From positions 1 to 53,292 of the IMG/VR virus record IMGVR_UViG_3300037297_000142: a stretch of 53,292 nucleotides of DNA; one strand, given 5' to 3'. Every line of letters begins with the position of its first letter. Position 1 is the stretch's first letter. The notes under the pieces are model-generated. The model did not search any database and was not told where the DNA came from. It saw nothing but the letters and a program-made list of their open reading frames with translations. This DNA comes from a virus. Positions 28,355 to 53,292 of this stretch are shown here, in pieces. Made by a program: the position numbers and the translations under genes.

Positions 28355-28391
28355 GTTTTAGATACAGGAGGTTTGTTAATGAATGCCTGGT

Positions 28392-28463
28392 AGCGGAGTA
28401 GAGCAGGGGTAGCTTGACGGTCTCATAAGCCGTAGGTCAGTGGTTCAATTCCACTCTCCGCTA
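28392..28463 (+). tRNA. tRNA with anticodon CAU (elongator Met or lysidine-modified Ile2)
   Basis: Hand-folded cloverleaf, 72 nt. Acceptor AGCGGAG/CTCCGCT, D arm GAGC..GCTT, anticodon arm ACGGT-CTCATAA-GCCGT, T arm AGTGG-TTCAATT-CCACT. No encoded CCA. Lacks the initiator features (no 1:72 mismatch, no three G-C pairs in the anticodon stem). Confidence 0.85.
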
Positions 28464-28668
28464 AACTTATTATAAAGGTAATAAATGCGTATGAAAGGAG
28501 GTGATTTTCAGCGCGGGGAAACGGAAAGCCCGCTATTATTTAATTACTAATGTTTTATTATTATATAATTTATTTAGTTTATTTTATTGTAATCAGCGGC
28601 GGTCTGTTAGGCTGCCGCATGTTATTAAAGGAATATATAGGTAAATATTTTATTGGTAAGGTGAAAAA

Positions 28669-37526: not shown

Positions 37527-37712
37527 TTAATATTTAGGTGACCATTCAAAACAATAATTATAATCATCTGGGTAATAATGAAAAATGCAAAATTTAAAAA
37601 TTAAAACTTTTTTATAATAAGTGCATGTTAAGCAGTATTTATATTTATTTTGATATATTTCAGAGAATAATTTATCATGTTTTAAGCACCATAGAATATT
37701 TTTATTACACAT
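37527..37712 (-). CDS. Small Cys-rich protein (last gene of the minus-strand island)
   Basis: 61 aa with 8 Cys, ending 2 nt from the stop of the convergent MuF-like gene. Confidence 0.4.
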   Translation of the reverse strand: MCNKNILWCLKHDKLFSEIYQNKYKYCLTCTYYKKVLIFKFCIFHYYPDDYNYCFEWSPKY

Positions 37713-37713
37713 A

Positions 37714-37983
37714 TCAATTAAAAATTTCCTTATATTTATCCGGTAATTGCATTATTGATATACCACCATTTACTTTATCTTTCACAATTAAAAATAAATC
37801 ATTTGTGGGAATACATCTAATAATTATTATTGTTCTATAAGCGTCAATTTCTTCTGTTAAGATTATCTTGAAATACTTTTCATCTGTTATTATTTTCTTA
37901 TCAGGATAATTCTCAGATTCACCAGCTGCAAAAATTGTCATACATAAAATTAAAAAAACAAATAAAAAAATAATTTTCTTCAT
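37714..37983 (-). CDS. Small secreted protein
   Basis: 89 aa. The signal peptide MKKIIFLFVFLILCMTIFAAGE may include a lipobox-like LILC. Confidence 0.5.
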   Translation of the reverse strand: MKKIIFLFVFLILCMTIFAAGESENYPDKKIITDEKYFKIILTEEIDAYRTIIIIRCIPTNDLFLIVKDKVNGGISIMQLPDKYKEIFN

Positions 37984-37998
37984 GATATAATACTCCTA

Positions 37999-38214
37999 TT
38001 AAGATCCGCCTGTAACATAAAAAGCTTTTTCTTGTAAATTGTATTGCATAGGATTTTTATCGTATATTTCCTTATGTATAGAATCAAAATCTAATCCATC
38101 ATTACAACATCTTTTCCATAATATATTACGTGCATGTGACAAGCTTTCAGCAATGACAATAGCAAGTCCAGATGTCCAATTGGGACAAAAATCATTCCAT
38201 TCATATATATACAT
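37999..38214 (-). CDS. Hypothetical protein (71 aa)
   Basis: Track ORF in the island. Confidence 0.45.
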   Translation of the reverse strand: MYIYEWNDFCPNWTSGLAIVIAESLSHARNILWKRCCNDGLDFDSIHKEIYDKNPMQYNLQEKAFYVTGGS

Positions 38215-38225
38215 ACATGTTACTC

Positions 38226-38582
38226 CTATTCAATTAAAAAAGTTATCTGTTTACCATGATCATTTTTTACCCATACTGGAGTAATTTTTCCAGGTGTTAA
38301 CGGATAATTTGGGTTATTGCTTATATCAAAGTTATCAAAATTAAAATTGTATGTATTCATTCCGATACTGAAGAATTTTTCTTGACATTGTGAATCTATT
38401 TTACAATGTACATCAATACTGTTTTTATCGTAAATATTTGTATTCCAAAATTCTATAGTAAAAAAAATATTACAATAACAAAACTGTTTACATGATGATA
38501 GAAAAAACTTGAAATCAAAATTTTTAAAAGAAAAACAAAGATATGGCTCATATTTTAAATAAATTATTATTATTACTTTCAT
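38226..38582 (-). CDS. Hypothetical Cys/Phe-rich protein (118 aa)
   Basis: Track ORF with a GGGAGAG RBS. Confidence 0.45.
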   Translation of the reverse strand: MKVIIIIYLKYEPYLCFSFKNFDFKFFLSSCKQFCYCNIFFTIEFWNTNIYDKNSIDVHCKIDSQCQEKFFSIGMNTYNFNFDNFDISNNPNYPLTPGKITPVWVKNDHGKQITFLIE

Positions 38583-38599
38583 TTCTTACTCTCCCTTTA

Positions 38600-38725
38600 T
38601 CAATTCAATTTCATTTTTTTCTTATATGACACATCTATATAAATTATAGCCGCTATTTTTTTTCTACTAATAATTTCTGCTACTTTTTTTAATATTTTTT
38701 CCTGGTGCGGATGTAACTTTTTCAT
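38600..38725 (-). CDS. Small basic protein (41 aa)
   Basis: ATGA overlap with the upstream gene. MKKLHPHQEKILKKVAEIISRKKIAAIIYIDVSYKKKMKLN. Confidence 0.3.
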   Translation of the reverse strand: MKKLHPHQEKILKKVAEIISRKKIAAIIYIDVSYKKKMKLN

Positions 38726-38934
38726 TTTTTTTTCGCCTCCAATTCCTTTTCCTCTTTTTTTATTTCTATTTCCAGGTCCGTTATAATTTCCATAAGGAAT
38801 TTTAATTTTTCTTCTGTCTCAAAAACAAATACGGGACTTGAAATTTCTATTTTTTTACTATTGCCGCTTACGTTTAAATTTCTTATTATCCCTTTTAAGA
38901 ATTCCTGGATTTCAATCTTCTGGTTTAATCTCAT
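38722..38934 (-). CDS. Hypothetical acidic coiled-coil protein (70 aa)
   Basis: Track ORF. Confidence 0.45.
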   Translation of the reverse strand: MRLNQKIEIQEFLKGIIRNLNVSGNSKKIEISSPVFVFETEEKLKFLMEIITDLEIEIKKEEKELEAKKK

Positions 38935-39079
38935 TTTCTTTATCCTTTCTTAATTCTTCATTAGAATGATAGCAACCCTTACAAGTAAATACGGTTTTCT
39001 CAATATTCGGGCACTGTATTTTTAATTTACACCACACAGGATTCTCATAATTTATAGTTCCGTCAAGTTTTTCTTTCAT
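38912..39079 (-). CDS. Small Cys-containing protein (55 aa)
   Basis: ATGA overlap with the upstream gene. MKEKLDGTINYENPVWCKLKIQCPNIEKTVFTCKGCYHSNEELRKDKENEIKPED. Confidence 0.35.
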   Translation of the reverse strand: MKEKLDGTINYENPVWCKLKIQCPNIEKTVFTCKGCYHSNEELRKDKENEIKPED

Positions 39080-39375
39080 TTGTTTTTCTCCTGTAAGAGT
39101 TTATCATATTTTTTTTGACATTTCTTGCATATACTCTCTCTCATTATACCTTGAATCTCTAATGATTTGAATTCGATTATTCCATCAGTATGTGTATATT
39201 GATCCAAGTCGCCCTTAAACTTCCTGTCAAATACACCTGGATCAAGATCGTAACTGTTATAATGCCCGCCTTTTGAATACCCGGGTTTATGTTTAACTTT
39301 ACATAAAATTTCCCCGTCTATAAAAATATGTCTTTTCCGTGATCCCCAGGCAATAACTACTTTATCACCTGTCAT
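39076..39375 (-). CDS. Hypothetical protein (99 aa)
   Basis: Start moved to ATG 39375 (ATGA overlap). MTGDKVVIAWGSRKRHIFIDGE...CKKCQKKY. Confidence 0.45.
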   Translation of the reverse strand: MTGDKVVIAWGSRKRHIFIDGEILCKVKHKPGYSKGGHYNSYDLDPGVFDRKFKGDLDQYTHTDGIIEFKSLEIQGIMRESICKKCQKKYDKLLQEKNK

Positions 39376-39689
39376 TTTAATAATCCTTGATTTTTTAAAA
39401 CTCTTCTCACACATTCGCTAATCATACCATAGCAGTACGCCTGGATGTGATCTTTATAATGATGATTTGGATCATGCTCATCGTGATAACATCTTTCAAG
39501 AGTTTCTTTGAGATCGTTAAGAAAAGGATATTTTTTTTTGACAGTAATTCTTACAAATTTACTTAGTGGGTTATTATCAGGCATGTAATAATAGCTTTTT
39601 ATTTCTGTAATTTCCTCACAATCCTGGGTTAAAATTTCAAGTTCAGGATTAAGATTTTTTAAAATCGAAATAGCGTCTTTGACTTTCAT
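39372..39689 (-). CDS. Hypothetical protein (105 aa)
   Basis: Track ORF, preceded by a structured leader at 39690-39761. Confidence 0.5.
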   Translation of the reverse strand: MKVKDAISILKNLNPELEILTQDCEEITEIKSYYYMPDNNPLSKFVRITVKKKYPFLNDLKETLERCYHDEHDPNHHYKDHIQAYCYGMISECVRRVLKNQGLLK

Positions 39690-39708
39690 ATGTCCCCTTT
39701 CCGGGGGA

Positions 39709-39731
39709 AAATAAGCTTGGAGGCTGTACTT
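39709..39731. repeat. 23-bp direct repeat, copy 1 (aaataagcttggaggctgtactt)
   Basis: Identical to 40179-40201, 470 bp away. Confidence 0.9.
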
Positions 39732-39761
39732 TCCCCCTATGCGGTTTTTATTCCGGGTAAG

Positions 39762-40049
39762 TCAACCCGTTATTACCGGATTCTGGTCGGCCGGTACCGT
39801 TAAAGAAAATTCGTAATAATCATGGTCAAATTCGAAATGGGCGGGATTATTACAGTCATAGTCACAACAAAAATGATTATTTTTTATACCGTCAACATAC
39901 AATCCTGCGAATTCACAGGTATTGTCTGAAAGATTTAATTTCCAGTATTCTTCTGATGAGGTGTCGTTAACCTCATCATAGAAAACTATGAAACCTGAAG
40001 TTATTTTTTTGTTTTTGATTTCCTGTATTTGTTTCTCTGTAAGTTTCAT
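39762..40049 (-). CDS. Hypothetical protein (95 aa), first gene of the minus-strand island
   Basis: ATG 40049 after GGAGGGAAAC. The promoter-proximal 36 nt match 10398-10433 with one mismatch. Confidence 0.5.
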   Translation of the reverse strand: MKLTEKQIQEIKNKKITSGFIVFYDEVNDTSSEEYWKLNLSDNTCEFAGLYVDGIKNNHFCCDYDCNNPAHFEFDHDYYEFSLTVPADQNPVITG

Positions 40050-40073
40050 GTTTCCCTCCTTGATCATATTATA

Positions 40074-41344: not shown

Positions 41345-41755
41345 ATGAACAGAATAGAGAGACCTGCCGCCCAAAGGTGGTATGAATACGATAATAACTC
41401 GGATGTCAATTTAAGTCAATTTCATTTTGTTTTCTGGAATAATGGAAATGAAATTGCACTCCCTGTACTGGGTTATATTGCAGATAATAACGGACTTGCC
41501 GCCGGTGCAGCCGGGAAAATTTGCAGCGAAGTAGGCGCGGTATGGCAAATATCACAGATTGCAGATGACTGCGTGAATCTACCCAGGTGGACAGTTTTAT
41601 ACATGACACCTGGGGTTGGTAATTTTCACGCAACCCCGATCGACGGCGACTATAAAGTTGGTTTTCTTACTGTCGCGCAGGCAGCAGGTGAGGAATTTGT
41701 GACAATACAGTTTACACCGCCTGAGCGTGTATCAGACGATGAACTTTCAACATAA
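41345..41755 (+). CDS. Small head-module protein (decoration / DUF2190-like by position)
   Basis: 136 aa, between the scaffold and capsid genes, Gly/Ala-rich. Confidence 0.35.
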   Translation: MNRIERPAAQRWYEYDNNSDVNLSQFHFVFWNNGNEIALPVLGYIADNNGLAAGAAGKICSEVGAVWQISQIADDCVNLPRWTVLYMTPGVGNFHATPIDGDYKVGFLTVAQAAGEEFVTIQFTPPERVSDDELST

Positions 41756-41773: not shown

Positions 41774-43042
41774 ATGGCTCATATTTTAAATAAAACTTTT
41801 ATTTCAGATCAAAATTTCAAAATGAAACGCGTTCATACCATGAAGGTATATAAAACGCATGATCTTGAATTGATGATGAAAACCAGGGGTGAAGACGAGA
41901 TACGGGAAATAAATGAACGGACAGTCAGATTATCATTAAGCAAGAGCGCGCCTTTCTATAACGGAAGTAAAGGCGAATCTGTAATTTTGCAACAAATTGA
42001 AGACAGGTTGAGGCAGCTTAAAAAGAAAGGAATCACCAGTCTTAAACAGTGCCTTGAACATTACCCGACAGGTGCGGAAACACTGTTTGATCTTTTCAGG
42101 ATGGATATTACCGCGCGGATTCTTGATCTTGCCGACATAACACCTTACGTCGCGAATGTAATACAGAATGATGCATTTACAGACCCTTGTTATGCGCGGT
42201 GGTTTTTTGAATACGTCGCGTATTTTGATAAGATAACCGGCCGCGGTGATCCTGTAAACATGCTTGAAACAAAAACCGGCGATCAGGAAACCATGAGTTT
42301 TGAAATTTACGGTGTTGGTTTTGAGCAGGATTTGTACAATCAACTTTTCAATAATATTTTCGATGCGCAGAAAGTAACACGGGCAATCGCACGCGGTTAT
42401 GTATTGAGAAAAAATTCCCTTGTATTGAATCCTATCCTCAACTTTTCATACCCTACACCGAAAACGGTAACAACGGCAACCGGCGGGACATATGAACAGA
42501 ATGTCTATGACACTCTCCAGAGTGCAATAAATAAACTCGGATTACTCCGCGATTATCAAACCGGTGAATATGTTGATGTTATGGAAGGCATAACCCTGAT
42601 GATACATACTACCCAGGTGCGCGGTGTAAACCGGTGTATAAATGGGGGTTTGACTCCCGGCTCAACGATCAAAAATATTAACCCGATTAATGAGATTACC
42701 CGTATACTTCCGAGTCAAACAAGATATCAATTTTACGGGAATAAAAGAAAAGAATTTAAGGGTTGCAGTCAAAATCAGTTTTTTATGTTTATACCGCGTA
42801 AATATTTTTGGCTTGGACTGAAAAGAGATCTTACACATGTAACCGGACCCGGTGATACATTCGGTATCACTTCAAAAAAAGAGGCATGGTATTTTGTACC
42901 TACAACATATTACCAGCAGTTCTTTGGTGGAAGTAAATCAGATAAAGCATCCAGTAAAGATCCTACGGTAATGTGTCAAGATCATGGCTGGATTGTTACC
43001 GGCGAATTGCCGACACCGGAAACAGCAGGGGAAGATACATAA
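41774..43042 (+). CDS. Major capsid protein
   Basis: 422 aa with a strong AAGGAGG RBS, followed by a terminator. Position and size are typical of HK97-fold capsid proteins. Confidence 0.65.
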   Translation: MAHILNKTFISDQNFKMKRVHTMKVYKTHDLELMMKTRGEDEIREINERTVRLSLSKSAPFYNGSKGESVILQQIEDRLRQLKKKGITSLKQCLEHYPTGAETLFDLFRMDITARILDLADITPYVANVIQNDAFTDPCYARWFFEYVAYFDKITGRGDPVNMLETKTGDQETMSFEIYGVGFEQDLYNQLFNNIFDAQKVTRAIARGYVLRKNSLVLNPILNFSYPTPKTVTTATGGTYEQNVYDTLQSAINKLGLLRDYQTGEYVDVMEGITLMIHTTQVRGVNRCINGGLTPGSTIKNINPINEITRILPSQTRYQFYGNKRKEFKGCSQNQFFMFIPRKYFWLGLKRDLTHVTGPGDTFGITSKKEAWYFVPTTYYQQFFGGSKSDKASSKDPTVMCQDHGWIVTGELPTPETAGEDT

Positions 43043-43055: not shown

Positions 43056-43087
43056 ACCGGGGGAGGCGAAAGTTGAACCCGGTTTTT
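43056..43087 (+). terminator. Intrinsic terminator/attenuator after the capsid gene
   Basis: ACCGGG/CCCGGU stem with a 16-nt loop, followed by a U5 tract. Confidence 0.55.
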
Positions 43088-43091
43088 AAAA

Positions 43092-43844
43092 ATGTCGAAT
43101 ATAGAAATAATTACAGTTCAGTTTAATTATCCACCACCACGGCCAAATTATAAAGTTTTACTTGACGTTTTTCAATTCTCAGTAAAAAAATTTATGCCAA
43201 ATGCAATTTTTATTAAGCATGAAATTAAAGCACCGCCTAACAAAACAAACAGGCCGTTAAACTTCAATTATAATGATGTGAAATTAAAGATTTGGCGCGA
43301 TCATATGCGGAGTACAAAAAATAATGTAATTTTTGCAGACTGTGATATGCTAATGTTAAGGTCTGCTGAACATGCATTTAAAAAAGATTTTGACGTTGCA
43401 TATACCGCGCGTACAATAATCAAGCGTATCCCAATGAACGGAGGCATTGTATTTGCAAGACCGACAAAACGCGCAATTGCTTTTTTCAATGAATGGTATA
43501 ACGTAAATCATAAGATGTTACATGATATTACTTTTCATCATGAATGGCGCGCGCGATGGGCCGGAATGAATCAAGCCGCATTTGGATACATGCATGATCG
43601 CCGTGCAAATTGTGCAAAATTAAAAAAATACATTACGCGTACATGGAATGCTGTTGACTGTGACTGGAATTTTATTGATGAAAATACAGTATTTTGTCAT
43701 TATAAATCTAAATTACGAAAACTTGTACTTTCAGGAAAAGAACCGTTTGGAATATACAGAAAGGCCATGAATATTTGGTACAGAATGAATGATGAAATGA
43801 AAAGGTCAAAAATGTCAAGAAAAAGAAGAAAGAAAACCGCGTGA
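43092..43844 (+). CDS. GT-A-type glycosyltransferase (nucleotide-diphospho-sugar transferase-like), paralog 1
   Basis: 250 aa. FADCDMLMLRS (DxD), DVAYTARTIIKRIPMNGGIVFARPTKRAIAFFNEW. Paralogous to 43841..44518. Confidence 0.6.
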   Translation: MSNIEIITVQFNYPPPRPNYKVLLDVFQFSVKKFMPNAIFIKHEIKAPPNKTNRPLNFNYNDVKLKIWRDHMRSTKNNVIFADCDMLMLRSAEHAFKKDFDVAYTARTIIKRIPMNGGIVFARPTKRAIAFFNEWYNVNHKMLHDITFHHEWRARWAGMNQAAFGYMHDRRANCAKLKKYITRTWNAVDCDWNFIDENTVFCHYKSKLRKLVLSGKEPFGIYRKAMNIWYRMNDEMKRSKMSRKRRKKTA

Positions 43845-44518
43845 AAATAATTACCGTTTGTTTTGCAAGGAAATTTTATTATAATAAATTATTACGTGTT
43901 TTTGAAAATTCTTTAAAAGCCGTAATGCCGAAAATAAAACCAAAGATTTTACGTCCTAAACTTCCGAGGAGTATTGATCATAAAAGAGACACGGCATTTG
44001 CCTTTATCGCCGCCGCAAAATATGTATTAAAAGCAAAACACCTAACGGCCGTTTGTGACTGTGATTTAATGTTTTTAAAGAGTATTGCTGATATAACAGA
44101 AAAAGATTTTGATATTGCGGTAACAACACGTTCAAAAGTAAAATATAATACAGGGTTATGGTTTTATCGTCCGTCAAATAACGCGGCTTTATTTGTACGT
44201 GAATGGATTGAACAGACAAATAATATAATGAAAGATTTTTGTACCTGGGAAGATTTCTGCTGGAATCATGGAGGAATAGATCAGGCATCTTTATATTTAA
44301 CAATAAGAAAATTAAAAAGGAAAATAAAAATATTAGAATTACCCTGTGAAGAATGGAATTCGACACAAAGCGAATGGCGTTATATTGATGAAAATACAAG
44401 GATAATACATATTAAAAGTCAATTACGCGGTTTTTGTTGTAAGCCGAATAAAAATAAAATAACTGAAAAATGGGAATTCTTAAGACCTTATGTTAAAATG
44501 TGGAAAGGGTTTTTATGA
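43841..44518 (+). CDS. GT-A-type glycosyltransferase, paralog 2
   Basis: 225 aa. VCDCDLMFLKS, DIAVTTRSKVKYNTGLWFYRPSNNAALFVREW, IDENTRIIHIKSQLRG. Collinear with paralog 1. Confidence 0.6.
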   Translation: MKIITVCFARKFYYNKLLRVFENSLKAVMPKIKPKILRPKLPRSIDHKRDTAFAFIAAAKYVLKAKHLTAVCDCDLMFLKSIADITEKDFDIAVTTRSKVKYNTGLWFYRPSNNAALFVREWIEQTNNIMKDFCTWEDFCWNHGGIDQASLYLTIRKLKRKIKILELPCEEWNSTQSEWRYIDENTRIIHIKSQLRGFCCKPNKNKITEKWEFLRPYVKMWKGFL

Positions 44519-45132
44519 TTTTACCGGATAACTGTGAAAATCTTATAAAATTACAAAGGTCAAAATATGGAAAATCAGATATAAAAAAATCTTTCCAGGA
44601 TGATCTTGAAAATGAATTTAACTCAATAATAAATTTCCTTCCCGAAGATTGTAAAAAAATAATTGACATAGGCTGCGGGCTTGCTGGTATATCTATTCAA
44701 TTACATCATTATTATGATTCACCGTTTTTATATTTGGTGGATAAAAATGAAATAACACAAAATTTAAAATACGGATTTTCTGAAAATCCATCGTTTTATA
44801 ATTCATTTGAAATTTTAGAAAAGATAATGAAGTTAAATAATATTGGAAATTATGAATTTGTTTCTCCCGATAATGATTTTTCAAAGATGAAAAATATTGA
44901 TATTGTAATTTCTTTATTGGCTTGTGGTTTTCATTTTCCCCTTTATCATTATTTTGGAAGAATATATGAAAGTCTTTCAAAAAATGGAATACTTATTGTC
45001 GATATAAGAAAACAACAGTATAATAATGAAATAAAATTGATTGAATTATATTTTAGAAATTATGAAGAAATACAAACAGATAATCCGAAAACTGTACGGA
45101 TATGCGCAAAGGAGAAAATATGTCTGGCGTAA
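44515..45132 (+). CDS. Class I SAM-dependent methyltransferase
   Basis: ATGA-overlap start at 44515. Motif I IIDIGCGLAGIS. Confidence 0.55.
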   Translation: MILPDNCENLIKLQRSKYGKSDIKKSFQDDLENEFNSIINFLPEDCKKIIDIGCGLAGISIQLHHYYDSPFLYLVDKNEITQNLKYGFSENPSFYNSFEILEKIMKLNNIGNYEFVSPDNDFSKMKNIDIVISLLACGFHFPLYHYFGRIYESLSKNGILIVDIRKQQYNNEIKLIELYFRNYEEIQTDNPKTVRICAKEKICLA

Positions 45133-45710
45133 CAAAAGACGGAAAATTAAAACCTTATAAAAAAAGAATGAGGTGGGACGCGATACTATCCCGGTTACCT
45201 GAAAACAAAAAATTAAAAGGTGCGGAAATTGGAGTGTTAAACGGTAATACCGCCGCGCGCCTTTTAAGGGCAAGGCCATTATTAACACATATTATGATTG
45301 ATCCGTGGTGCGTACCCGGAAAGAATTCGTCATATTGGAAGTCAGCGGATGCAAATGCAAGAAAAGCGCAAAGAGAGCATGAGGCGGCATATCAAAGAAC
45401 ACTGAAGGTGACGGCGTTTGCTGGTAGTCGCGGGCGTGTTATGCGTATGACTTCGGAATTGGCAGCTCCGCAAATAAAAAACGGTTCTCTTGATTTTGTA
45501 TTCCTTGACGGTGATCATAGTTATCCAGGGATGAAAAAAGATATTGAACTCTGGACAAAGAAAGTAAAGCCGGGCGGATGGATAGGCGGGCATGATTACA
45601 AGCATGAAACGCGTCCCGATCTTCACGGAATTGACAAGGCCGTTGAGGAAGCTTTCCCGGTTAATAAAATAGAGATAGATGCAAATCACACTTGGTTTGT
45701 GAGGTTATAA
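45120..45710 (+). CDS. SAM-dependent methyltransferase (TylF / Methyltransf_24-like)
   Basis: Start at ATG 45120 after AAGGAG. GAEIGVLNGNTA and FVFLDGDHSYPGMKKDIELWTKKVKPGGWIGGHDY. About 50% GC in the lines counted, well above its neighbours. Confidence 0.6.
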   Translation: MSGVTKDGKLKPYKKRMRWDAILSRLPENKKLKGAEIGVLNGNTAARLLRARPLLTHIMIDPWCVPGKNSSYWKSADANARKAQREHEAAYQRTLKVTAFAGSRGRVMRMTSELAAPQIKNGSLDFVFLDGDHSYPGMKKDIELWTKKVKPGGWIGGHDYKHETRPDLHGIDKAVEEAFPVNKIEIDANHTWFVRL

Positions 45711-45715
45711 TTATA

Positions 45716-46117
45716 ATGTGTGTGGAAGATAAAATAATAAAAGAATTAGAGAATGAAAAACAAGATATACTTGAAGCGGTACAAATAATTAAAGACTTCG
45801 GTCCTGATGTAAAAGCTATACGTGTTATGTTAGATGATCATAAAAAAAGAATTGATGAGGAAGTACTGGAGAGAAAAGAGGAAAATAAAAGGATTACTTC
45901 AAACTATTTAAAAAGATTTGAAAAAATTGAAATTCTTATAAATTGTGTTAATAAAGGAATTAATACAAAATTTAAAGACTTTGTTATTGATATGAAAAAT
46001 GAATTAAAATCAACTAATAAGCTTATTATAAGTCTTTTTGTAACAATATTTATTATGTTTATGGGTAGTACTATATTTGTTGTCTTAAATAATATTTTTA
46101 AATGGATTACGATATGA
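45716..46117 (+). CDS. Coiled-coil protein with a C-terminal transmembrane helix
   Basis: 133 aa. K/E-rich helix followed by LIISLFVTIFIMFMGSTIFVVL. Confidence 0.5.
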   Translation: MCVEDKIIKELENEKQDILEAVQIIKDFGPDVKAIRVMLDDHKKRIDEEVLERKEENKRITSNYLKRFEKIEILINCVNKGINTKFKDFVIDMKNELKSTNKLIISLFVTIFIMFMGSTIFVVLNNIFKWITI

Positions 46118-46668
46118 TTTATGTTGTAATGGGCATGTCAAAAAGTGGAACTACTCTTGTATCAAAAACTCTTCACGAGTCTGGTATAAATATGTATCCT
46201 GGAAAAACCGGAAATTATAAGCAAAGCAAATATGAAGATCCTGAAATGATAAAAATCCTTTTAAAAATGTTCAACACAAAAAAATTACAATCTTTATATA
46301 TTCCAGAAAAGATAATTATAAATGATAAAATAAGAAATGATATAAAAAATTATATTTCAAAGCGTAGTTGCTGTCATAATTGGGGATTTAAGCAACCGTG
46401 GGTAACGCTTGCTTATTTACATTTTTTACATTTTCTACCTGAACATACAGCAATAGGAATACAAAGAAGCCCGGCAGGGTTAATTAATCATTGGAAAAAA
46501 CGCGGTAAAAAAGTTAATGAAAAAAAAGTAAAATACGTTCAAAATATTTATAATACTCTTATGCAAGGTTATGGAATATCGATTTTAAGTTTTGAGAATT
46601 TTATAAAAAACGGTCCCGGTGAATTGGAGAAAATAACAGGATTAAGATTAAAGGATGTGCGATCATGA
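46102..46668 (+). CDS. Sulfotransferase-like protein
   Basis: 188 aa. GMSKSGTTLV (PAPS 5'-phosphosulfate loop-like, K-x-G-T-T) and WGFKQPWVTLAYLHFLHFLPEHTAIGIQRSPAGL (resembles GxKdP....fP...i.i.RdP of bacterial sulfotransferases). Confidence 0.55.
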   Translation: MDYDMIYVVMGMSKSGTTLVSKTLHESGINMYPGKTGNYKQSKYEDPEMIKILLKMFNTKKLQSLYIPEKIIINDKIRNDIKNYISKRSCCHNWGFKQPWVTLAYLHFLHFLPEHTAIGIQRSPAGLINHWKKRGKKVNEKKVKYVQNIYNTLMQGYGISILSFENFIKNGPGELEKITGLRLKDVRS

Positions 46669-48316: not shown

Positions 48317-49300
48317 ATGGGTATAGATATAAATAAAAAAACGGAATTCGGTCCTGAAGGTTTTCTTATTGCAAGAAACAACCCGGACGGAACTCCTCCG
48401 AGTCCATCCCGGGTATTGGGTTTTTACGGGACCGTGAATCTTTCAGCATACGGACCCGATAATGACGCATACCTGGGAATTAAAATTGATAACAACGCGA
48501 TACAAACAAATCAGGTTGACTGGACAGCGGCGGTTGACAAATCGGCGGTGACAGTCCAGGAAATGGTAAACGCAATTAACGCGGCAGGTTTCACCGACAT
48601 TACCGCTTCAGTTGATACGGCAACAAGCAGATTATTAATACAGTATACGGGTACTGGAAACCCGACATTTTTACAGGTTTTTTCAGTTGACACCCACCCG
48701 ACGTTTGCGGCGGAATTGGACTTTGGACAAGGTCAAACGTTTGGCGGTGAAGGGCTGATATATTTTGAGGCGTTTGATAATGCGCGGAGTATTGGATTGC
48801 CGAAAAATATTAAGGATTCTGAAGAAATCGAAAATGAATCTGGTGACGGTACACTTATAACAGTTATTATTCCGGCAATTGTAAAAGGTTACAATCCTGT
48901 TCTCACGTGTACTGATAATGACTATCAAATCAAACAGCTAATCCAGGGCGGTACATGGGTTTCTTTAACTTCCACATATACGCCGCCGTTATCATCACAG
49001 ACAAGAAGGCCGATTTTTAATATTATTCTTTTTTCACCTTTGTATAATAAGGGCAGTAATCAGCTGGAAGATGAGGCAGGGTATTTAATGAGGCGGATTA
49101 ATTCAATTACCGGTTATGAGTCTGATGAAACATTTGAAACGAAAACATTAAAGGAAACGGCTTATAATTGTAAGGCAACAGAATACGAAAATCAGAATGA
49201 TGTAAAACAGCCTTTTTACACTGATAAAAATCTTTCCAGTGAAGAATTCGAAGCGCTTCACGTTGATGAAATTACCCCGGATACGGACATAGACACATAA
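48317..49300 (+). CDS. Major tail (tube) protein
   Basis: 327 aa with a strong AGGAGG RBS, located before the chaperone and TMP genes. No sheath-sized gene is present. Confidence 0.55.
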   Translation: MGIDINKKTEFGPEGFLIARNNPDGTPPSPSRVLGFYGTVNLSAYGPDNDAYLGIKIDNNAIQTNQVDWTAAVDKSAVTVQEMVNAINAAGFTDITASVDTATSRLLIQYTGTGNPTFLQVFSVDTHPTFAAELDFGQGQTFGGEGLIYFEAFDNARSIGLPKNIKDSEEIENESGDGTLITVIIPAIVKGYNPVLTCTDNDYQIKQLIQGGTWVSLTSTYTPPLSSQTRRPIFNIILFSPLYNKGSNQLEDEAGYLMRRINSITGYESDETFETKTLKETAYNCKATEYENQNDVKQPFYTDKNLSSEEFEALHVDEITPDTDIDT

Positions 49301-49301: not shown

Positions 49302-50039
49302 ATGGAAATTGACGTAAAAAATAATAAACCCCCTGAAGGGTATAACCCGATTCATGTTATACGCGGTGCTATGTTTCACGAAATATGTGTACCGTTTAAT
49401 AACTCCCCTGTGTGGTGTTATGTTACATGTTTAAATAGCATTCAAATACAATCAGCGGGCGATATATCTTGTTTGTGTTTTAATGATGAAAAAAAATCAG
49501 AAAAATATGATATAATCGAAGTCATAAAAAGGAAAAATGTTCAAGAAAACCTTGTGAAACTCGTGCTTGTCAAACCTACCTTTGATGAAATTATCGGGAT
49601 GATAATTGATGAAAATTTTATAATTTCTGAAAAAATAAAAGCGCTTGAAAAAATTAAAAACGAAATAAAAACAGCGCAGTTAAACAATTCAGAGAGAAAA
49701 AAATTGCAAAGGAAGATTGAAAAAATCGAGTTTCACATTGGTTTTTTACTGCCTGATGATACGATGAGTTTCCTTACTTCATGGGCACTTGGTATTGAAA
49801 TAACTGATATAAAAAAATTATCACGTGATATATTGTTAGACGCTGCAATAATGGCGGCAAATGGAAAGGATAATCCATCCGATCATATAACAGGAGTATT
49901 CACGGATTTTCAGCGTGAAGATATAAACAAACACGCATGGTATATTTATAAGGAATATATTGACGATAAAGAACGTGAAAGCAAACTAAAAAAATCTAAA
50001 TATAGATGGTATGGCGGAAAAAATAAAGTAAATGCCTGA
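49302..50039 (+). CDS. Tail assembly chaperone (positional)
   Basis: 245 aa, between the tube and TMP genes, overlapping the TMP start by 8 nt. Confidence 0.45.
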   Translation: MEIDVKNNKPPEGYNPIHVIRGAMFHEICVPFNNSPVWCYVTCLNSIQIQSAGDISCLCFNDEKKSEKYDIIEVIKRKNVQENLVKLVLVKPTFDEIIGMIIDENFIISEKIKALEKIKNEIKTAQLNNSERKKLQRKIEKIEFHIGFLLPDDTMSFLTSWALGIEITDIKKLSRDILLDAAIMAANGKDNPSDHITGVFTDFQREDINKHAWYIYKEYIDDKERESKLKKSKYRWYGGKNKVNA

Positions 50040-53000
50040 AAATGCCGGTAGTATATATAGTTCATTATTTTTAAAACTCGATCAACTGGACAGGGGAATA
50101 CTCCAGGTACAAAATAAATTAACAAAACTTGAAAAAACAACCCAGGCAAAGGCGGGCGGTTTCGCATCATTCTGGAGAAATGCTTTTCAAACGGCTTTCG
50201 GATTCGGAATAGTTCAACTAATCGGAAAAGTGACAGCAGCTATAAGAAATGCAATTGGTATTTTTTCAGGTTTTCAACAGAGTATGCAGAATGTAAAATC
50301 TGTGACAGGTGCGACAGAAGAGGAATTCCGGCAAATGACCGAAGCTGCAAAGGAAGCCGGAGAAACAACCAGATTCACGGGACGGCAGGCGGCGGACGCA
50401 TTGTACTATCTGGGTTCTGCCGGGTTCACTGCTCAACAGTCTATTGCGGCATTAGACGGCGTGCTACAATTGGCTGGAGCTACACAAGCCGATCTTGCGT
50501 CTACTTCTGAAGCCGTCGCGTCAATAATTTCTCAATATAGTTTGCAGGCTGAAGACGCGTCCAGGGTTAGCAATGTATTTGCCGCCGCGATTGGAAATAG
50601 TCAAGCGACTATGGAAAAATTGACTAATTCTTTCCGGCAGGTAGGACCGGTTGCGGCTGGACTCGGAATGTCATTAGAGCAGACTACCGGAGCGCTTCAA
50701 ATTCTTTATAATGCTGGTTTCCGGGGGCAGGCTGCGGGCCGGGCGTTAAAATCAGCTTTGGCGGATCTTGCATCACCGACTACAAACATGCAGAAAATAT
50801 TTACAAAACTTGGTGTATCGCTTAATTCCGTTAACCCTGCTACAAATGAATTAAGCGATATTATTGATGTACTCGGGAAATCAGGCGCGGATACTGCCGA
50901 CATCATAGATGCATTCGGAAAAATTGCAGGTCCGCAAATGGCCGTATTGATTAAGCAGGGCGGAAACGCGTTAAGAAAATACACACAAGATGTAACGGAC
51001 ACAAATGCGGCTACTGAAATGTACAGAATTCAAAATGATTCTTTAGCTGGCAGCCTGGATTTTTTGAAATCAAAACTTGAAGGCGTTGCAATAGCTATTT
51101 TTGAAAAGCTTTCCCCCGGTATGCGGGAAATGATAGATAGTTTTATATCATTTCTTGACGCGGCAAAACCGGCGGGCGTATTATTAGGGCAAGTCCTTAA
51201 TATACTATTAAAAATAGCTTCTTTTTCTGTAAAAGGTATTACAAATGTTTTTAAAACGCTAAATGACATATTTGGAGTATCTTCTATAGAAATGGAAAAA
51301 GCAGCGCAGGGAATTGACAAGGTGACGGAATCAATACAGCGCGCCGGGGAATTGGGAAATACAGCAAAAAAATTAAATGAACTTACAGACGAATATGAAC
51401 AGTTAAAATCAAAAACAAATCTTACGGAAAATGAACAGGACAGATTGAAAGCCGTAATCATGGCTATAAAAAATATTATGCCCGATGCAATTACAAAATT
51501 CGACGAATATGGAAACGCTATTGAAGTATCCGGAGAGAAAACACGTGAAGCCGCAAAACAAATGTTAATTGCAAGAGAAGCCGAATTGTCAAAATCTTTA
51601 TCCCTGCTGAAAGTAAGTGAAACCCTGTATAAAAATCAGATAAGAGAAAATGAAACGCAGGCCAAACTTGCAAAACAAAACAGGAACCGTCTTATTGCTG
51701 AAAGCGCAAACGCGGAGGCGCGGCTTGCAATACTCGAAAAATTGAGAATAGAATATAACCGGCAAATTGACGGACTAACAGGAAGTGAGACGGCTGCCGA
51801 TGCATATAATAAAACTATAAAATTATTGAATTCTGATTTAAAAAAAGTTGGTCTTAGTTTTAAAAATCAAGTTAGTTCAGTGTATGAGGCAAATCAACAG
51901 TTTCAAAATATAAACAGAGAAATACAGAAAGCTAATAAAACATATACGGATTATGCAAAGGCAATATCAAAACCAACACGGGCGGAACTAATAACAGAAG
52001 AGGCAACAAAAAAACTCCAGGAAATCGCGGATCTTGAAAAACAAATACAGGAAATTCAGGGGCAAATAAAAGATATAGAAAAAATTGACCCTGCTGATGA
52101 TAGCGCACCTGAAAAACTTGATTCGCTTTCTCAAAAAATAAATGAATTTTGGGAAAGTTTCAAAAACGATCTTCAGGATGCTACGCGGGAAAGTGAACTT
52201 TTCGGTAAAAAACAAGATGTGTTAAAAGCAAAACTTGATTTTCTACGGTCCAGTTATCTTAATTTGCTGAATGAAGGTATTGACCCGGCTTCCAGTACCA
52301 TGCAAAAATTAAGGCAGGAATATGATTTAACGTTAATTGAATTGAATGCGCTTATTGAAAATGAAAAAAGACACACTGAAGAATTACAAAACAAAGAAAA
52401 AGCAGAGCAGGACATTCAAAAGATGACTGCTGATTATTATGATAAAATACAGGAACTTGGGAAATCTGAAAATGAATTAATTGAAATTGAGAGAAACCGC
52501 GCTATAACTTCAGTATATGCAAGCGGCGCCAGTGTAGAGGCAATACAAAAAGCTATTGAGGCGATAAATTTATATTATGATAAATTAAAAGAAAATTCAG
52601 AGCAGACAAAAGAACAGGTAAAAATTACATTTGATGACATGTTAAGTTATGCTCAACAATTAGCGAATGCATTAACAGGGTTATGGCAGGCTATTACACA
52701 AGCCCGGCTTGACGAACTTGACAGACAAATGCAAGCAGAACTTGACGCGGCTGAATTATCAGAAGAGACGGAAAGGGAACGACTTGAAAGGGAGCTTGAA
52801 GAGGCAAAAAAAGCAGGGGACAAAGAACGCGCACAGGAAATAGAAAATGAAATGAAGCGGCTTGAAATCAAAGAAAAATATGAAAAAGAAGCCGCGATGA
52901 TAAAATATAAAGCTGCTCTCCAGGAATGGAAATTTAGTCTTGCAGCGGCTATAGTAAGTTTAGCGCAGGGAATAAATAAAGCGGTTGCAAGCGCGCCTTG

Positions 53001-53292
53001 GCCGTTTAATCTTCCGGCTATTGCATTTGCGACGGCGTTAGGTGGTATACAAGTTGCCTCCGTTAATCAACAGAAACCTAAACCACCGCAATTTTCAACG
53101 GGCGGATTATTTTTAGGTCCAGGGCAACAATATACAGGAAATACAAATGAACCCGGAACTCCCGCGATACTTCATAATCGCGAAATGATTTTAAATGAAG
53201 GTCAAATGAAAAATCTTTTTAATATGATTAATGCCGGTAATTCCGGGGGTGGCGGTAGTCGTATAATACAGGTGACAGCAATAATTGAAATG
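50032..53292 (+). CDS. Tail tape measure protein (N-terminal 1087 codons; about 1114 aa once joined to 1..211)
   Basis: Open frame from ATG 50032 to the window end, so it has no stop and is absent from the track. TP901-type core VKSVTGATEEEFRQMTEAAKEAGETTRFTGRQAADALYYLGSAGF, long coiled coils, hydrophobic and Gly-rich C-terminal part. Confidence 0.9.
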   Translation, partial: MPENAGSIYSSLFLKLDQLDRGILQVQNKLTKLEKTTQAKAGGFASFWRNAFQTAFGFGIVQLIGKVTAAIRNAIGIFSGFQQSMQNVKSVTGATEEEFRQMTEAAKEAGETTRFTGRQAADALYYLGSAGFTAQQSIAALDGVLQLAGATQADLASTSEAVASIISQYSLQAEDASRVSNVFAAAIGNSQATMEKLTNSFRQVGPVAAGLGMSLEQTTGALQILYNAGFRGQAAGRALKSALADLASPTTNMQKIFTKLGVSLNSVNPATNELSDIIDVLGKSGADTADIIDAFGKIAGPQMAVLIKQGGNALRKYTQDVTDTNAATEMYRIQNDSLAGSLDFLKSKLEGVAIAIFEKLSPGMREMIDSFISFLDAAKPAGVLLGQVLNILLKIASFSVKGITNVFKTLNDIFGVSSIEMEKAAQGIDKVTESIQRAGELGNTAKKLNELTDEYEQLKSKTNLTENEQDRLKAVIMAIKNIMPDAITKFDEYGNAIEVSGEKTREAAKQMLIAREAELSKSLSLLKVSETLYKNQIRENETQAKLAKQNRNRLIAESANAEARLAILEKLRIEYNRQIDGLTGSETAADAYNKTIKLLNSDLKKVGLSFKNQVSSVYEANQQFQNINREIQKANKTYTDYAKAISKPTRAELITEEATKKLQEIADLEKQIQEIQGQIKDIEKIDPADDSAPEKLDSLSQKINEFWESFKNDLQDATRESELFGKKQDVLKAKLDFLRSSYLNLLNEGIDPASSTMQKLRQEYDLTLIELNALIENEKRHTEELQNKEKAEQDIQKMTADYYDKIQELGKSENELIEIERNRAITSVYASGASVEAIQKAIEAINLYYDKLKENSEQTKEQVKITFDDMLSYAQQLANALTGLWQAITQARLDELDRQMQAELDAAELSEETERERLERELEEAKKAGDKERAQEIENEMKRLEIKEKYEKEAAMIKYKAALQEWKFSLAAAIVSLAQGINKAVASAPWPFNLPAIAFATALGGIQVASVNQQKPKPPQFSTGGLFLGPGQQYTGNTNEPGTPAILHNREMILNEGQMKNLFNMINAGNSGGGGSRIIQVTAIIEM
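53166..53292. repeat. Terminal direct repeat, copy 2 (identical to 1..127)
   Basis: Exact 127-nt match to the window start. Confidence 0.95.

What the first reader, a model, noticed from the sequence alone, without database searches (positions are those of the whole stretch)
43092..46668. Six-gene glycan-modification island (2 GT-A glycosyltransferases, 2 SAM methyltransferases, a TM coiled-coil protein, a sulfotransferase-like protein) between the capsid and connector genes
Seen in sequence: six co-oriented genes interrupt the usual capsid -> connector order, just downstream of a hairpin terminator at 43056-43087. They are two collinear paralogs with DxD (DCD) and GT-A-like blocks, and a DxGCGxG methyltransferase. 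A TylF/Methyltransf_24-like methyltransferase follows; I counted about 50% GC in two of its 60-nt lines, against clearly AT-rich lines in the gene before it, which suggests separate acquisition. The last two are a coiled-coil protein with a C-terminal TM helix and a protein with a K-S-G-T-T PAPS-loop-like motif plus a WGFKQPW...IQRSP block typical of sulfotransferases. Established knowledge: glycosyltransferase and methyltransferase genes next to capsid genes underlie virion glycosylation in some mycobacteriophages. Other phage GTs perform O-antigen/teichoic-acid seroconversion or DNA glucosylation. Inference: this set could assemble a methylated, sulfated glycan on virion proteins or on the host envelope. 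Both the capsid and tail-tube proteins end in acidic S/T/P-rich tails (TGELPTPETAGEDT, EITPDTDIDT). I am not aware of a described phage-encoded sulfation route for virions.
Basis: partly seen in the sequence, partly recalled or inferred. Interest (0 to 1): 0.85.

Follow-up and report, generated by a model that had tools for sequence, protein, structure and literature searches.

The report
Phage capsid glycan-decorating enzyme cassette
An uncultured phage carries, right after its capsid gene, two sugar-adding enzymes, two methylating enzymes and a sulfate-adding enzyme, which most likely decorate short threonine-ended tails on its capsid, cement and tail-tube proteins; this would extend phage particle glycosylation beyond mycobacteriophages and add sulfation.

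Summary
The six co-oriented genes are real. Profile, motif and structure tests support five enzymes: two paralogous retaining GT-A glycosyltransferases, two SAM methyltransferases and a compact Sulfotransfer_3-type sulfotransferase. The sixth gene, a tail-anchored membrane protein, is a poorly conserved accessory.

The cassette is not a private island. GT(1-3)-[MT]-MT24-[ST] modules recur in an uncultured phage clade with 32-64% GC. They always lie in the head module, at one of two positions, and are more conserved than the capsid protein.

All 29 cassette-bearing loci have a major capsid, cement or tube protein ending in a short tail that stops on Thr or Ser. None of 10 well-covered cassette-less relatives do. 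The glycosylated mycobacteriophages Che8 and Corndog likewise end capsid and tube proteins on Ser.

Cellular relatives of the sulfotransferase lie in polysaccharide loci. One related phage has an APS kinase, which makes PAPS, inside the cassette.

Best reading (about 0.6): cytoplasmic O-glycosylation of virion protein C-termini, with methylation and sulfation of the glycan. It is a new variant of a known kind. No chemistry has been shown.

The parts
41345..41755 (+). Capsid decoration (cement) protein, 136 aa, ending ...SDDELST. Candidate substrate.
   Evidence: Homologs in L004 and L037 carry PF09956 Phage_cement_2. Its C-terminus ends in S or T in many cassette-bearing relatives and in none of the 10 well-covered cassette-less ones.
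41774..43042 (+). Major capsid protein, 422 aa. The tail after the conserved 'LP' is TPETAGEDT (nt 43013-43039) and ends on Thr. Candidate substrate.
   Evidence: Profile hit to PDB 9gay major capsid protein at 2.9e-21 and to phrog_3116 at 2e-14. An acidic tail ending in Thr occurs in 21 cassette-bearing loci and in no well-covered cassette-less locus.
43056..43087 (+). GC hairpin followed by a T5 run, likely a leaky intrinsic terminator after the capsid gene.
   Evidence: A hairpin plus U-run sits at the same place in the 10 cassette-bearing relatives examined and in 3 cassette-less relatives.
43092..43844 (+). GT1, a retaining-type GT-A glycosyltransferase (PF03407, GT77-like) with DxD motif D83-C-D85.
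   Evidence: PF03407 at 1.5e-7, 32.1 bits against a cutoff of 22. AF2 pLDDT 95.9. Foldseek top hit is PBCV-1 A64R (2p73, E 4.3e-8), then Skp1 alpha-GalT, glycogenin and LgtC. Invariant residues are listed.
43841..44518 (+). GT2, a paralog of GT1 with the DCD motif conserved.
   Evidence: BLASTP against GT1 gives E 1e-22. PF03407 scores 22.1 bits against a cutoff of 22.
44500..45132 (+). Class I SAM-dependent methyltransferase (motif I is IDIGCGLAG; invariant D81).
   Evidence: Family members hit MTS (8 of 9) and Methyltransf_31 (7 of 9, best 3.9e-6). Among 25 PDB profile hits listed at E up to 10, nearly all are methyltransferases, best 1.7e-3. A cellular homolog sits next to a sulfotransferase homolog in a polysaccharide locus.
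45102..45710 (+). Methyltransf_24 (TylF-like) methyltransferase with an FLDGDHSY motif. It is the best-conserved cassette gene.
   Evidence: PF13578 at 1.8e-17. It is 67-82% identical to orthologs in L001-L003. Corndog gp35 belongs to the same Pfam family.
45716..46117 (+). Small coiled-coil-like protein with a C-terminal TM helix (the ORF opens at 45692). Accessory, function unknown.
   Evidence: KD19 2.44 at aa 112-130. Found only in the window and L002 among related loci. Only 13 relatives among 1.84 billion representatives.
46114..46668 (+). Compact (184 aa) Sulfotransfer_3-type sulfotransferase (the ORF opens at 46102). It has the 5'-PSB loop K14-S-G-T-T and invariant E45, K97 and R122.
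48317..49300 (+). Major tail (tube) protein, assigned by position, with an 8-residue C-terminal extension TPDTDIDT (nt 49274-49297). Candidate substrate.
   Evidence: It lies upstream of a chaperone-position gene and of the tape-measure gene (PF10145 in L001 and L003). The extension beyond the '...ALDVxNV' end of other clade members occurs only in the window, L001, L003, L007 and L020, all of which carry the cassette.

Best explanation
This is a phage-encoded system that modifies virion proteins.

Proposed steps (all inferred unless marked):
1. Late in infection most transcripts stop at the hairpin after the capsid gene. Read-through yields low, catalytic amounts of five soluble enzymes.
2. 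GT1 and GT2 use host nucleotide sugars to build a short O-linked glycan on the hydroxyl of the C-terminal Thr. They may also use neighbouring Ser or Thr in the short acidic tails of the major capsid, cement and tail-tube proteins.
3. The two SAM methyltransferases O-methylate the sugars.
4. The sulfotransferase transfers sulfate from host PAPS to the glycan.
5. Each virion then carries hundreds of capped, negatively charged glycans. These change its surface properties, for example stickiness, or recognition by binding proteins, proteases or grazers.

Shown by computation: the enzyme folds and families, the linkage to the head module, the co-variation of cassette and tails, and the link to PAPS. 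Not shown: the attachment site, the order of the steps, the sugars used, and the benefit to the phage.
For: Enzyme families.
- GT-A.
- Methyltransferases.
- Sulfotransferase: 17 of 19 family members hit PF13469. Ortholog P0018 scores 29.7 bits against a cutoff of 27 across profile positions 3-207 of 216. The K-S-G-T-T loop replaces the Walker A GK[ST] motif. G11, K14-L19, H25, E45, W94, G95, K97, P99 and R122 are shared with 71 cellular homologs.

Glycan rather than protein chemistry.
- Genes around 15 cellular homologs of the sulfotransferase are dominated by glycosyltransferase and sugar-nucleotide genes. Counts: GT1 24, GT4 18, GT2 11, plus epimerases, GDP-mannose dehydratase, RmlD, Polysacc_synt and pyruvyl transferase.
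- A Rhodothermales MAG has an ORF3-like methyltransferase (E 8e-30) directly upstream of a sulfotransferase homolog, between GT2 and GT4 genes.
- In the phage loci, the sulfotransferase and MT24 never occur without a GT.

PAPS link. Phage L016 carries an adenylyl-sulfate kinase inside the cassette (E 7.8e-36 to PDB 2gks).

Virion target.
- The cassette always lies in the head module, either between capsid and connector genes or between portal and scaffold genes.
- Cassette proteins are more conserved than the capsid protein.
- All 29 cassette-bearing loci have a capsid, cement or tube protein ending in a Thr/Ser-terminated tail. None of 10 well-covered cassette-less loci do (Fisher p 1.6e-9).
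- A sister contrast inside one subclade supports this: L131 against L125, L126, L128 and L130.
- All five enzymes lack TM segments.

Precedent.
- Glycans sit at the C-termini of capsid and tube subunits of mycobacteriophages (PMC12619734, citing Freeman 2023).
- Che8 and Corndog capsid and tube proteins all end on Ser.
Against: - No biochemical or mass-spectrometry data exist. Host and habitat are unknown.
- The 'tail ending in S/T' feature was defined after looking at the data. The loci are phylogenetically related, so the Fisher p value overstates independence; I estimate only a handful of independent contrasts.
- Cassette-less loci could carry glycosyltransferases elsewhere in their genomes.
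- The window's own ORF6 scores only 14.2 bits on PF13469. Foldseek places it equally close to adenylate kinases (TM 0.54-0.57) and to tyrosylprotein sulfotransferases (TM 0.60-0.62), which share the fold.
- The window has Asn where most homologs have Ser, next to H130.
- The APS kinase was found in only one phage.
- GT1 has a long basic C-terminal helix, and ORF5 is membrane-anchored. Both could point to a membrane-proximal acceptor.
- The window encodes no nucleotide-sugar or PAPS genes.
Confidence: 0.6

Rival explanations
1. The cassette remodels a host envelope glycan (O-antigen, capsule, teichoic acid or EPS) late in infection. This could block superinfection or stop progeny from re-adsorbing to debris. 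The tails on virion proteins would be unrelated.
For: - Cellular relatives of the sulfotransferase and of the ORF3 methyltransferase sit in polysaccharide loci.
- GT1 family members end in a long basic helix, which may bind membranes. That reading rests on my recollection of LgtC.
- ORF5 is membrane-anchored.
Against: - All five enzymes are soluble. The cassette has no flippase, polymerase or polyprenyl-phosphate GT.
- The cassette is always in the head module and co-transcribed with structural genes.
- It co-occurs in all sampled loci with S/T-ended tails on virion proteins.
- ORF5 is missing in most relatives.
Confidence: 0.15
2. The sulfotransferase and/or the methyltransferases act directly on the protein tails rather than on a glycan built by the GTs. 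Examples would be O-sulfation of Thr, Ser or Tyr, or methyl-esterification of acidic residues or the C-terminal carboxylate.
For: - The highest TM-scores of the ORF6 model are to tyrosylprotein sulfotransferases (0.60-0.62).
- The tails are rich in Asp, Glu and Thr.
Against: - The sulfotransferase and MT24 never occur without a GT in 29 loci.
- Cellular homologs lie in glycan loci.
- MT24 belongs to the TylF-like family, as does the Corndog cassette methyltransferase.
- No Tyr is conserved in the tails.
Confidence: 0.1
3. ORF6 is not a sulfotransferase but another P-loop enzyme, such as a small kinase. The cassette would then make only a methylated, possibly phosphorylated, glycan.
For: - The best Foldseek E-values are to archaeal adenylate kinases (5e-5).
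- ORF6 is kinase-sized at 184 aa. Cellular homologs have a median of 256 aa.
- The window protein alone is below the Pfam cutoff.
Against: - There is no GK[ST] Walker A lysine. K-S-G-T-T is the sulfotransferase PAPS loop.
- Only sulfotransferase families are hit in Pfam, and orthologs pass the cutoff over the whole profile.
- Cellular homologs reach 7e-35 on PF13469.
- An APS kinase sits in a sister cassette.
Confidence: 0.08
4. The enzymes modify phage DNA or nucleotides (glycosylated or methylated bases) to evade restriction.
For: - phrog_2675, the best PHROG for ORF4, is labelled 'DNA methyltransferase'.
- Many phage GTs glucosylate DNA (PMC12619734).
Against: - The cassette is in the head module, not among replication genes.
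- The GT fold is closest to protein- and glycan-directed retaining GT-A enzymes.
- I know of no DNA sulfation (my knowledge).
- The window has separate N6_N4 DNA methylases and ThyX elsewhere.
- Cassette presence co-varies with the protein tails.
Confidence: 0.04

Closest known systems
Mycobacteriophage virion glycosylation (Che8, Corndog, Myrna; Freeman et al. 2023, as cited in PMC12619734, PMC11600133 and PMC12363180)
   Same: [quoted passage not shown]
- Corndog has an O-methyltransferase plus three GT genes inside the head module, between the portal-side genes and the protease and capsid genes.
- The Corndog methyltransferase is in the same Pfam family as ORF4 (TylF/PF13578).
- Che8 and Corndog capsid and tube proteins end on a hydroxy amino acid, Ser.
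   Different: - No sequence similarity to the window genes.
- The Corndog GTs are GT2- and GT25-like, not PF03407.
- The window tails end on acidic residues plus Thr, not Gly/Asp plus Ser.
- The cement protein is also tagged here.
- The window adds a second methyltransferase and a sulfotransferase, and one relative adds an APS kinase.
- The hosts are unknown, and the GC range of 32-64% is not what high-GC actinobacterial hosts would predict.
- The modification is shown by experiment there and only inferred here.
Chlorovirus PBCV-1 capsid glycosylation (A064R, acting on Vp54)
   Same: - A virus-encoded, cytoplasmic GT-A enzyme builds the capsid glycan independently of host glycosylation machinery.
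- The A64R GT domain is the best structural match of ORF1 (2p73, 2p72 and 2p6w; E 4e-8; TM 0.56-0.70).
- From my knowledge, PBCV-1 glycans carry O-methylated sugars made by a methyltransferase domain fused to GT domains. Relative L147 has a GT-MT fusion.
   Different: - A eukaryotic giant virus with N-linked glycans on a double-jelly-roll capsid protein.
- About 11-12% sequence identity only.
- No sulfation described, to my knowledge.
Bacterial polysaccharide sulfotransferases of the Sulfotransfer_3 family in glycan biosynthesis loci
   Same: - ORF6 shares 27-42% identity and all core motifs with 145 cellular genes.
- These genes lie among GT1/GT4/GT2 and sugar-nucleotide genes.
   Different: - The phage proteins are compact: 184-200 aa against a median of 256 aa.
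- They sit in a virion structural operon.
- None of these particular cellular relatives has, to my knowledge, been characterised.
Phage seroconversion and DNA glucosylation glycosyltransferases (Gtr systems, T4 alpha/beta-GT)
   Same: They are phage-encoded sugar transferases.
   Different: From my knowledge, those systems use membrane Gtr proteins in lysogeny modules, or GT-B enzymes acting on hydroxymethylcytosine DNA next to replication genes. Here the enzymes are soluble GT-A proteins in the head module.

Membership tests
GT-A nucleotide-diphospho-sugar transferases (Pfam PF03407, CAZy GT77-like) | Profile score above the curated cutoff | tested here: met
   ORF1 scores 32.1 bits against a cutoff of 22. 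ORF2 scores 22.1 against 22, which is borderline, but it is a paralog of ORF1 at E 1e-22.
GT-A nucleotide-diphospho-sugar transferases (Pfam PF03407, CAZy GT77-like) | Conserved DxD metal and nucleotide-sugar binding motif | tested here: met
   D83-C-D85 is invariant in 41 homologs and aligned in ORF2.
GT-A nucleotide-diphospho-sugar transferases (Pfam PF03407, CAZy GT77-like) | GT-A fold | tested here: met
   AF2 pLDDT 95.9. 224 PDB matches at E<=1e-3; the 50 best listed are nearly all retaining GT-A enzymes (A64R, Skp1 alpha-GalT, glycogenin, LgtC, GT6).
GT-A nucleotide-diphospho-sugar transferases (Pfam PF03407, CAZy GT77-like) | Glycosyl transfer activity, with donor and acceptor identified | not testable with these tools
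   Needs enzyme assays.
Sulfotransferases (Pfam PF13469 Sulfotransfer_3) | Profile score above the curated cutoff (27 bits) | tested here: inconclusive
   The window ORF6 scores 14.2 bits, covering the P-loop only. Ortholog P0018 (55% identical) scores 29.7 bits over profile positions 3-207 of 216, and P0022 scores 27.1. Cellular homologs reach 7e-35.
Sulfotransferases (Pfam PF13469 Sulfotransfer_3) | 5'-phosphosulfate-binding loop (K/R)-S-G-T-T in place of the kinase Walker A GK[ST] | tested here: met
   G11-M-S-K14-S-G-T-T-L19 is invariant in 19 phage and 71 cellular homologs.
Sulfotransferases (Pfam PF13469 Sulfotransfer_3) | 3'-phosphate-binding Arg and candidate catalytic Glu and Lys conserved | tested here: met
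   R122, E45 and K97 (in W-G-x-K-x-P) are invariant. Assigning roles to these residues rests on my memory of TPST and related enzymes and was not tested.
Sulfotransferases (Pfam PF13469 Sulfotransfer_3) | Sulfotransferase fold | tested here: inconclusive
   pLDDT is 92. The fold matches both NMP kinases (TM 0.54-0.57) and TPST, CurM-ST and Stf1 (TM up to 0.62). The two classes share the fold.
Sulfotransferases (Pfam PF13469 Sulfotransfer_3) | Functional link to PAPS | tested here: met
   An APS kinase gene lies inside the cassette of related phage L016 (E 7.8e-36 to PDB 2gks). The link is indirect and comes from one phage only.
Class I SAM-dependent methyltransferases | Profile match and SAM-binding motif I | tested here: met
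   ORF4 hits PF13578 at 64.6 bits against a cutoff of 26.3. ORF3 alone is below the cutoffs, but its family hits methyltransferase models (8 of 9 and 7 of 9, best 3.9e-6), nearly all its PDB profile hits are methyltransferases, and it has the DIGCG motif plus invariant D81.
Phage virion glycosylation system of the mycobacteriophage type | Homology of the glycosyltransferases to Che8 or Corndog GTs | tested here: not met
   No HMM or BLAST match to Corndog gp35-38. The Corndog GTs are GT2- and GT25-like. Che8's GTs were not fetched.
Phage virion glycosylation system of the mycobacteriophage type | GT genes plus a TylF-type O-methyltransferase gene within the virion structural module | tested here: met
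   Window layout compared with Corndog gp35-38 upstream of the protease and capsid genes.
Phage virion glycosylation system of the mycobacteriophage type | Capsid and tail-tube subunits offer a C-terminal attachment site | tested here: met
   The window capsid, cement and tube proteins end on Thr. Che8 and Corndog capsid and tube proteins end on Ser. This is a sequence feature only.
Phage virion glycosylation system of the mycobacteriophage type | Glycans physically present on virion proteins | not testable with these tools
   Needs mass spectrometry or glycan staining of virions or co-expressed proteins.

The most novel reading that the evidence does not exclude
An uncultured, environmentally widespread phage clade uses a portable C-terminal Thr/Ser 'glyco-tag' on its capsid, cement and tube proteins. 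A mobile head-module cassette builds a methylated and sulfated O-glycan on that tag. This would be the first sulfated phage particle and the first virion glycosylation system outside actinobacteriophages. It would be convergent with the mycobacteriophage system, down to the terminal hydroxy amino acid. Some members would even supply their own PAPS.
Probability: 0.4. Interest if true: 0.85.

Novelty: new variant of a known kind. Interest (0 to 1): 0.72.

Why it matters
From my memory of the abstract of Freeman et al. 2023, which I could not retrieve here, phage particle glycosylation was shown only in 2023, in mycobacteriophages, and evidence in the broader phage population was judged scarce.

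If this cassette works as proposed, virion glycosylation is a recurrent, modular trait of environmental phages, with richer chemistry that includes methylation and sulfation.

It also gives a simple, sequence-readable predictor: a Thr/Ser-ended tail on abundant virion proteins together with a GT in the head module. That predictor can be tested at scale.

A short C-terminal tag with a five-enzyme soluble pathway would be a compact tool for putting defined anionic glycans on protein nanoparticles. That could matter for phage therapy (immune shielding), for phage display, and for how phages behave in sulfated-polysaccharide-rich habitats.

Tried and rejected
- Direct searches of GenBank phages with 10 kb of DNA, the capsid protein, GT1 and the sulfotransferase found nothing. 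Only MT24 has 34%-identical relatives, in Synechococcus phages.
- Single-sequence and profile searches of ORF6, ORF1 and P0026 against PDB sequences gave no meaningful hits. ORF4 gave only a weak hit to a 'methyltransferase domain protein' (E 0.29).
- NCBIfam gave nothing useful. PHROGs has no family for GT1, GT2 or the sulfotransferase.
- The capsid search of IMG/VR with a single protein failed. The 16-sequence alignment was too diverse for the metagenome scan.
- Freeman et al. 2023 is not held in the library, so its content is cited second-hand.
- Separate acquisition of ORF4 from its GC content was rejected.
- The hairpin as an island boundary was rejected, because it follows the capsid gene in cassette-less phages too.
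- Phage-supplied PAPS or nucleotide sugars in this window were rejected: none are encoded.
- Host assignment was not possible. One related contig is binned with a Gammaproteobacteria MAG, which is weak evidence.
- A literature search found no described phage sulfation route for virions. BFVD does hold phage proteins annotated as sulfotransferases, so a phage sulfotransferase gene as such is not new.

Full report
**Observation.**
- A profile of the 422-aa protein upstream matches a solved major capsid protein (PDB 9gay, 2.9e-21). The 136-aa protein before it is a Phage_cement_2-type decoration protein in relatives.
- Downstream come connector-position genes, a 327-aa tube-position protein, a chaperone-position gene, and a tape-measure ORF that runs off the window.
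- The window is a whole 53,292-nt contig of a tailed phage. It encodes TerL, a helicase, a primase and a head morphogenesis protein.
- ORF6 most likely starts at 46114 and ORF5 at 45716.
- The hairpin plus T5 at 43056-43087 is real.

**What the genes are.**
- *ORF1 and ORF2.* ORF1 passes the Pfam cutoff for PF03407 (32.1 bits against 22). ORF2 is a collinear paralog (E 1e-22) with the same DCD motif. D83 and D85 are invariant in 41 homologs. The ORF1 model (pLDDT 95.9) is a GT-A fold. Its best PDB matches are the PBCV-1 A64R capsid-glycosylating enzyme (E 4e-8), the Skp1 alpha-galactosyltransferase, glycogenin, LgtC and GT6 enzymes. All are retaining GT-A transferases.
- *ORF4.* It is a Methyltransf_24 (TylF-like) enzyme (1.8e-17).
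- *ORF3.* It is weak alone. Its family consistently hits class I methyltransferase models, nearly all its PDB profile hits are methyltransferases, and it has the DIGCG motif with an invariant acidic residue after strand 2.
- *ORF5.* It is the only protein with a TM helix. It has just 13 relatives among 1.84 billion representatives.
- *ORF6.* Alone it is marginal on Sulfotransfer_3 (0.052). However, 17 of 19 family members hit that family and no other enzyme family. Orthologs pass the cutoff across the whole profile. Its model (pLDDT 92) has the P-loop kinase/sulfotransferase fold, which does not discriminate between the two. The motif does discriminate: K-S-G-T-T with no GK[ST] lysine.

**The sulfotransferase call has three independent supports.**
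1. The GTDB genome collection holds 145 cellular relatives at 27-42% identity that share every core residue. They hit PF13469 as strongly as 7e-35. Around 15 of them, the neighbouring genes are dominated by GT1/GT4/GT2 glycosyltransferases, sugar-nucleotide enzymes and polysaccharide export and biosynthesis genes.
2. In a Rhodothermales MAG, an ORF3-like methyltransferase (31% identity, 8e-30) lies directly upstream of the sulfotransferase homolog, between GT2 and GT4 genes. The ORF3-ORF6 pair therefore has a cellular counterpart in a glycan locus.
3. Related phage L016 carries a 190-aa adenylyl-sulfate kinase inside its cassette, between GT2 and the methyltransferase genes (7.8e-36 to PDB 2gks and 2e-35 to 2yvu). 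APS kinase makes PAPS, the sulfotransferase donor.

The window itself encodes no PAPS or nucleotide-sugar enzymes. It must rely on the host.

**The cassette is a conserved, mobile module.**
- Contigs L001-L004 carry the same genes in the same place.
- Cassette proteins are more conserved than the capsid protein. Against L001-L003, MT24 is 67-82% identical, the sulfotransferase 55-66% and GT1 59-60%, while the capsid protein is 40-53% identical. Against L004 the values are 59%, 44% and 56%, with the capsid at 28%.
- A census covered 63 distinct capsid loci from IMG/VR, JGI, Logan and NCBI. 29 loci carry 1-3 GTs. Of these, 21 have MT24, 12 have the ORF3-type methyltransferase and 12 have the sulfotransferase. 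The sulfotransferase and MT24 never occur without a GT.
- The cassette occupies one of two slots. One is between the capsid and connector genes. The other is between the portal and the head-morphogenesis or scaffold genes.
- Variants exist. L005 has a UDP-glucose/GDP-mannose dehydrogenase and extra MT24-like genes. L147 has a GT-MT fusion.
- Bearers span 32-64% GC.
- GT1 and the sulfotransferase have no match in 50,697 GenBank phage records.

**Target.**
- 19 of 20 database capsid homologs end in an acidic run plus a terminal Thr.
- In the census, a tail of at least 3 residues ending in Thr occurs in 21 cassette-bearing loci. It occurs in no well-covered cassette-less locus. The two apparent exceptions are contigs of 2.7 and 3.8 kb without the relevant flank.
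- In the 8 cassette-bearing loci without such a capsid tail, the cement protein ends in Ser or Thr (DEST, VVTS, LVTT, EAST, PDET).
- In the window's subclade the tube carries an 8-residue extension ending DIDT or EDDT.
- Counting any of the three proteins, 29 of 29 cassette-bearing loci have an S/T-ended tail. Among cassette-less loci with at least 9 kb upstream and 3 kb downstream, 0 of 10 do (Fisher p 1.6e-9).
- This feature was defined post hoc and the loci are related. The tree does show contrasts within subclades. L131 has a cassette, a capsid ending TLPEEDENT and a cement protein ending EEITS. Its neighbours L125, L126, L128 and L130 have no cassette, capsids ending TLPTES, TLPTEE or TLPTEA, and cement proteins ending GYIA.
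- L011 has TerL, portal, morphogenesis and scaffold genes packed with no room for the cassette, and nothing GT-like after the capsid gene.

**Mechanism proposed.**
- A hairpin terminator follows the capsid gene in every clade member examined, with or without the cassette. The enzymes are therefore probably made by read-through at low level.
- All five enzymes are soluble. They should act in the cytoplasm on virion subunits.
- The GTs would build a short O-glycan on the terminal Thr and perhaps on neighbouring Ser or Thr. The methyltransferases would methylate it. The sulfotransferase would sulfate it using PAPS.
- The order of steps, the sugars, the exact site and the benefit to the phage are inferred.

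**Comparison with what is known.**
- Mycobacteriophages attach glycans to the C-termini of capsid and tube subunits (PMC12619734, PMC12363180, citing Freeman 2023). [quoted passage not shown]
- I fetched Corndog and Che8. Corndog gp35 is TylF/PF13578, like ORF4. Its GTs are GT2- and GT25-like. No Corndog gene shows sequence similarity to the window.
- Corndog capsid and tube proteins end VGS and GDS. Che8's end TGS and DGS. The terminal hydroxy amino acid is thus shared by an experimentally proven system and this one.
- The window system is analogous rather than homologous, and it adds sulfation.

**Points not supported.**
- ORF4's higher GC does not indicate separate acquisition. Its orthologs show the same GC step in L001-L004, and the capsid and tube genes are equally GC-rich.
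- ORF5 is an accessory gene, not a core member.

**Verdict.** It is sharpened to a virion target. It is extended with the co-varying terminal Thr/Ser tag, the clade-wide modular cassette and the PAPS link. It is a new variant of a known kind (phage virion glycosylation). All chemistry remains to be shown.

Noticed in passing
L016:10321-10893 (same sequence in L019 and L029; IMG/VR 3300005663_001170 and LAZR01000593.1): An adenylyl-sulfate (APS) kinase gene lies inside the GT/MT/ST cassette of a related phage, flanked by two small Cys-rich ORFs of 65 and 52 aa. It was seen in only one phage among the loci held.
   Followed up: partly
L170 (Corndog, AY129335) gp41 and gp49; L171 (Che8, AY129330) gp6 and gp11: [quoted passage not shown] This parallels the terminal Thr seen here.
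   Followed up: partly
window 37527-40067, - strand: A block of small reverse-strand genes, several Cys-rich, splits the head-morphogenesis gene from the scaffold gene. Other clade members carry the cassette in roughly this region of the head module.
   Followed up: no
window 50039-53292 and 208-6647: A tape-measure-position ORF stays open to the 3' end of the window (at least 1084 codons), and large unannotated + strand genes (candidate tail genes) lie at the 5' end. The contig may therefore be a permuted, near-complete genome.
   Followed up: no
window 11174-14560, - strand: A 1128-aa protein has an N-terminal calcineurin-like phosphoesterase domain (PF00149, 7.4e-7). The rest has no family match.
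   Followed up: no
window 28391-28464: A single tRNA-Met (CAT) gene lies near the switch between the - strand replication module and the + strand packaging module.
   Followed up: no
window 43749-43844 (GT1 C-terminus) and homologs: GT1 family members end in a long helix (residues 220-249 in the model) with a strongly basic tip (KRSKMSRKRRKKTA, RKHRYNRRKKTA, RGLRRSRRRY). This could bind a membrane or the acidic substrate tails.
   Followed up: no
L147:12713-14131; L005:7162-8004 and 9230-11850: Cassette variants exist. L147 has a 472-aa GT-methyltransferase fusion. L005 has a UDP-glucose/GDP-mannose dehydrogenase followed by three Methyltransf_24-like genes, one of them a 419-aa double-domain protein.
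   Followed up: partly
L089:7114-8732 (Rhodothermales MAG JANJTM010000020.1): A cellular ORF3-like methyltransferase and an ORF6-like sulfotransferase are adjacent inside a GT2/GT4/FkbM polysaccharide locus. This is a possible source of the phage gene pair.
   Followed up: partly
window 43013-43039: The window capsid tail reads PET-AGEDT. It looks like the usual '...PET' ending of relatives (L001 and L003 end EPET) followed by a second acidic, Thr-ended unit, so the tag may be duplicated.
   Followed up: no
the window's other genes (exact ORFs not resolved; pooled scan of 37 ORFs): The phage also encodes two N6_N4 DNA methylases, ThyX, a Peptidase_M15_4 lysin-like protein and a further Methyltransf_25/31/11-type methyltransferase outside the cassette.
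   Followed up: no
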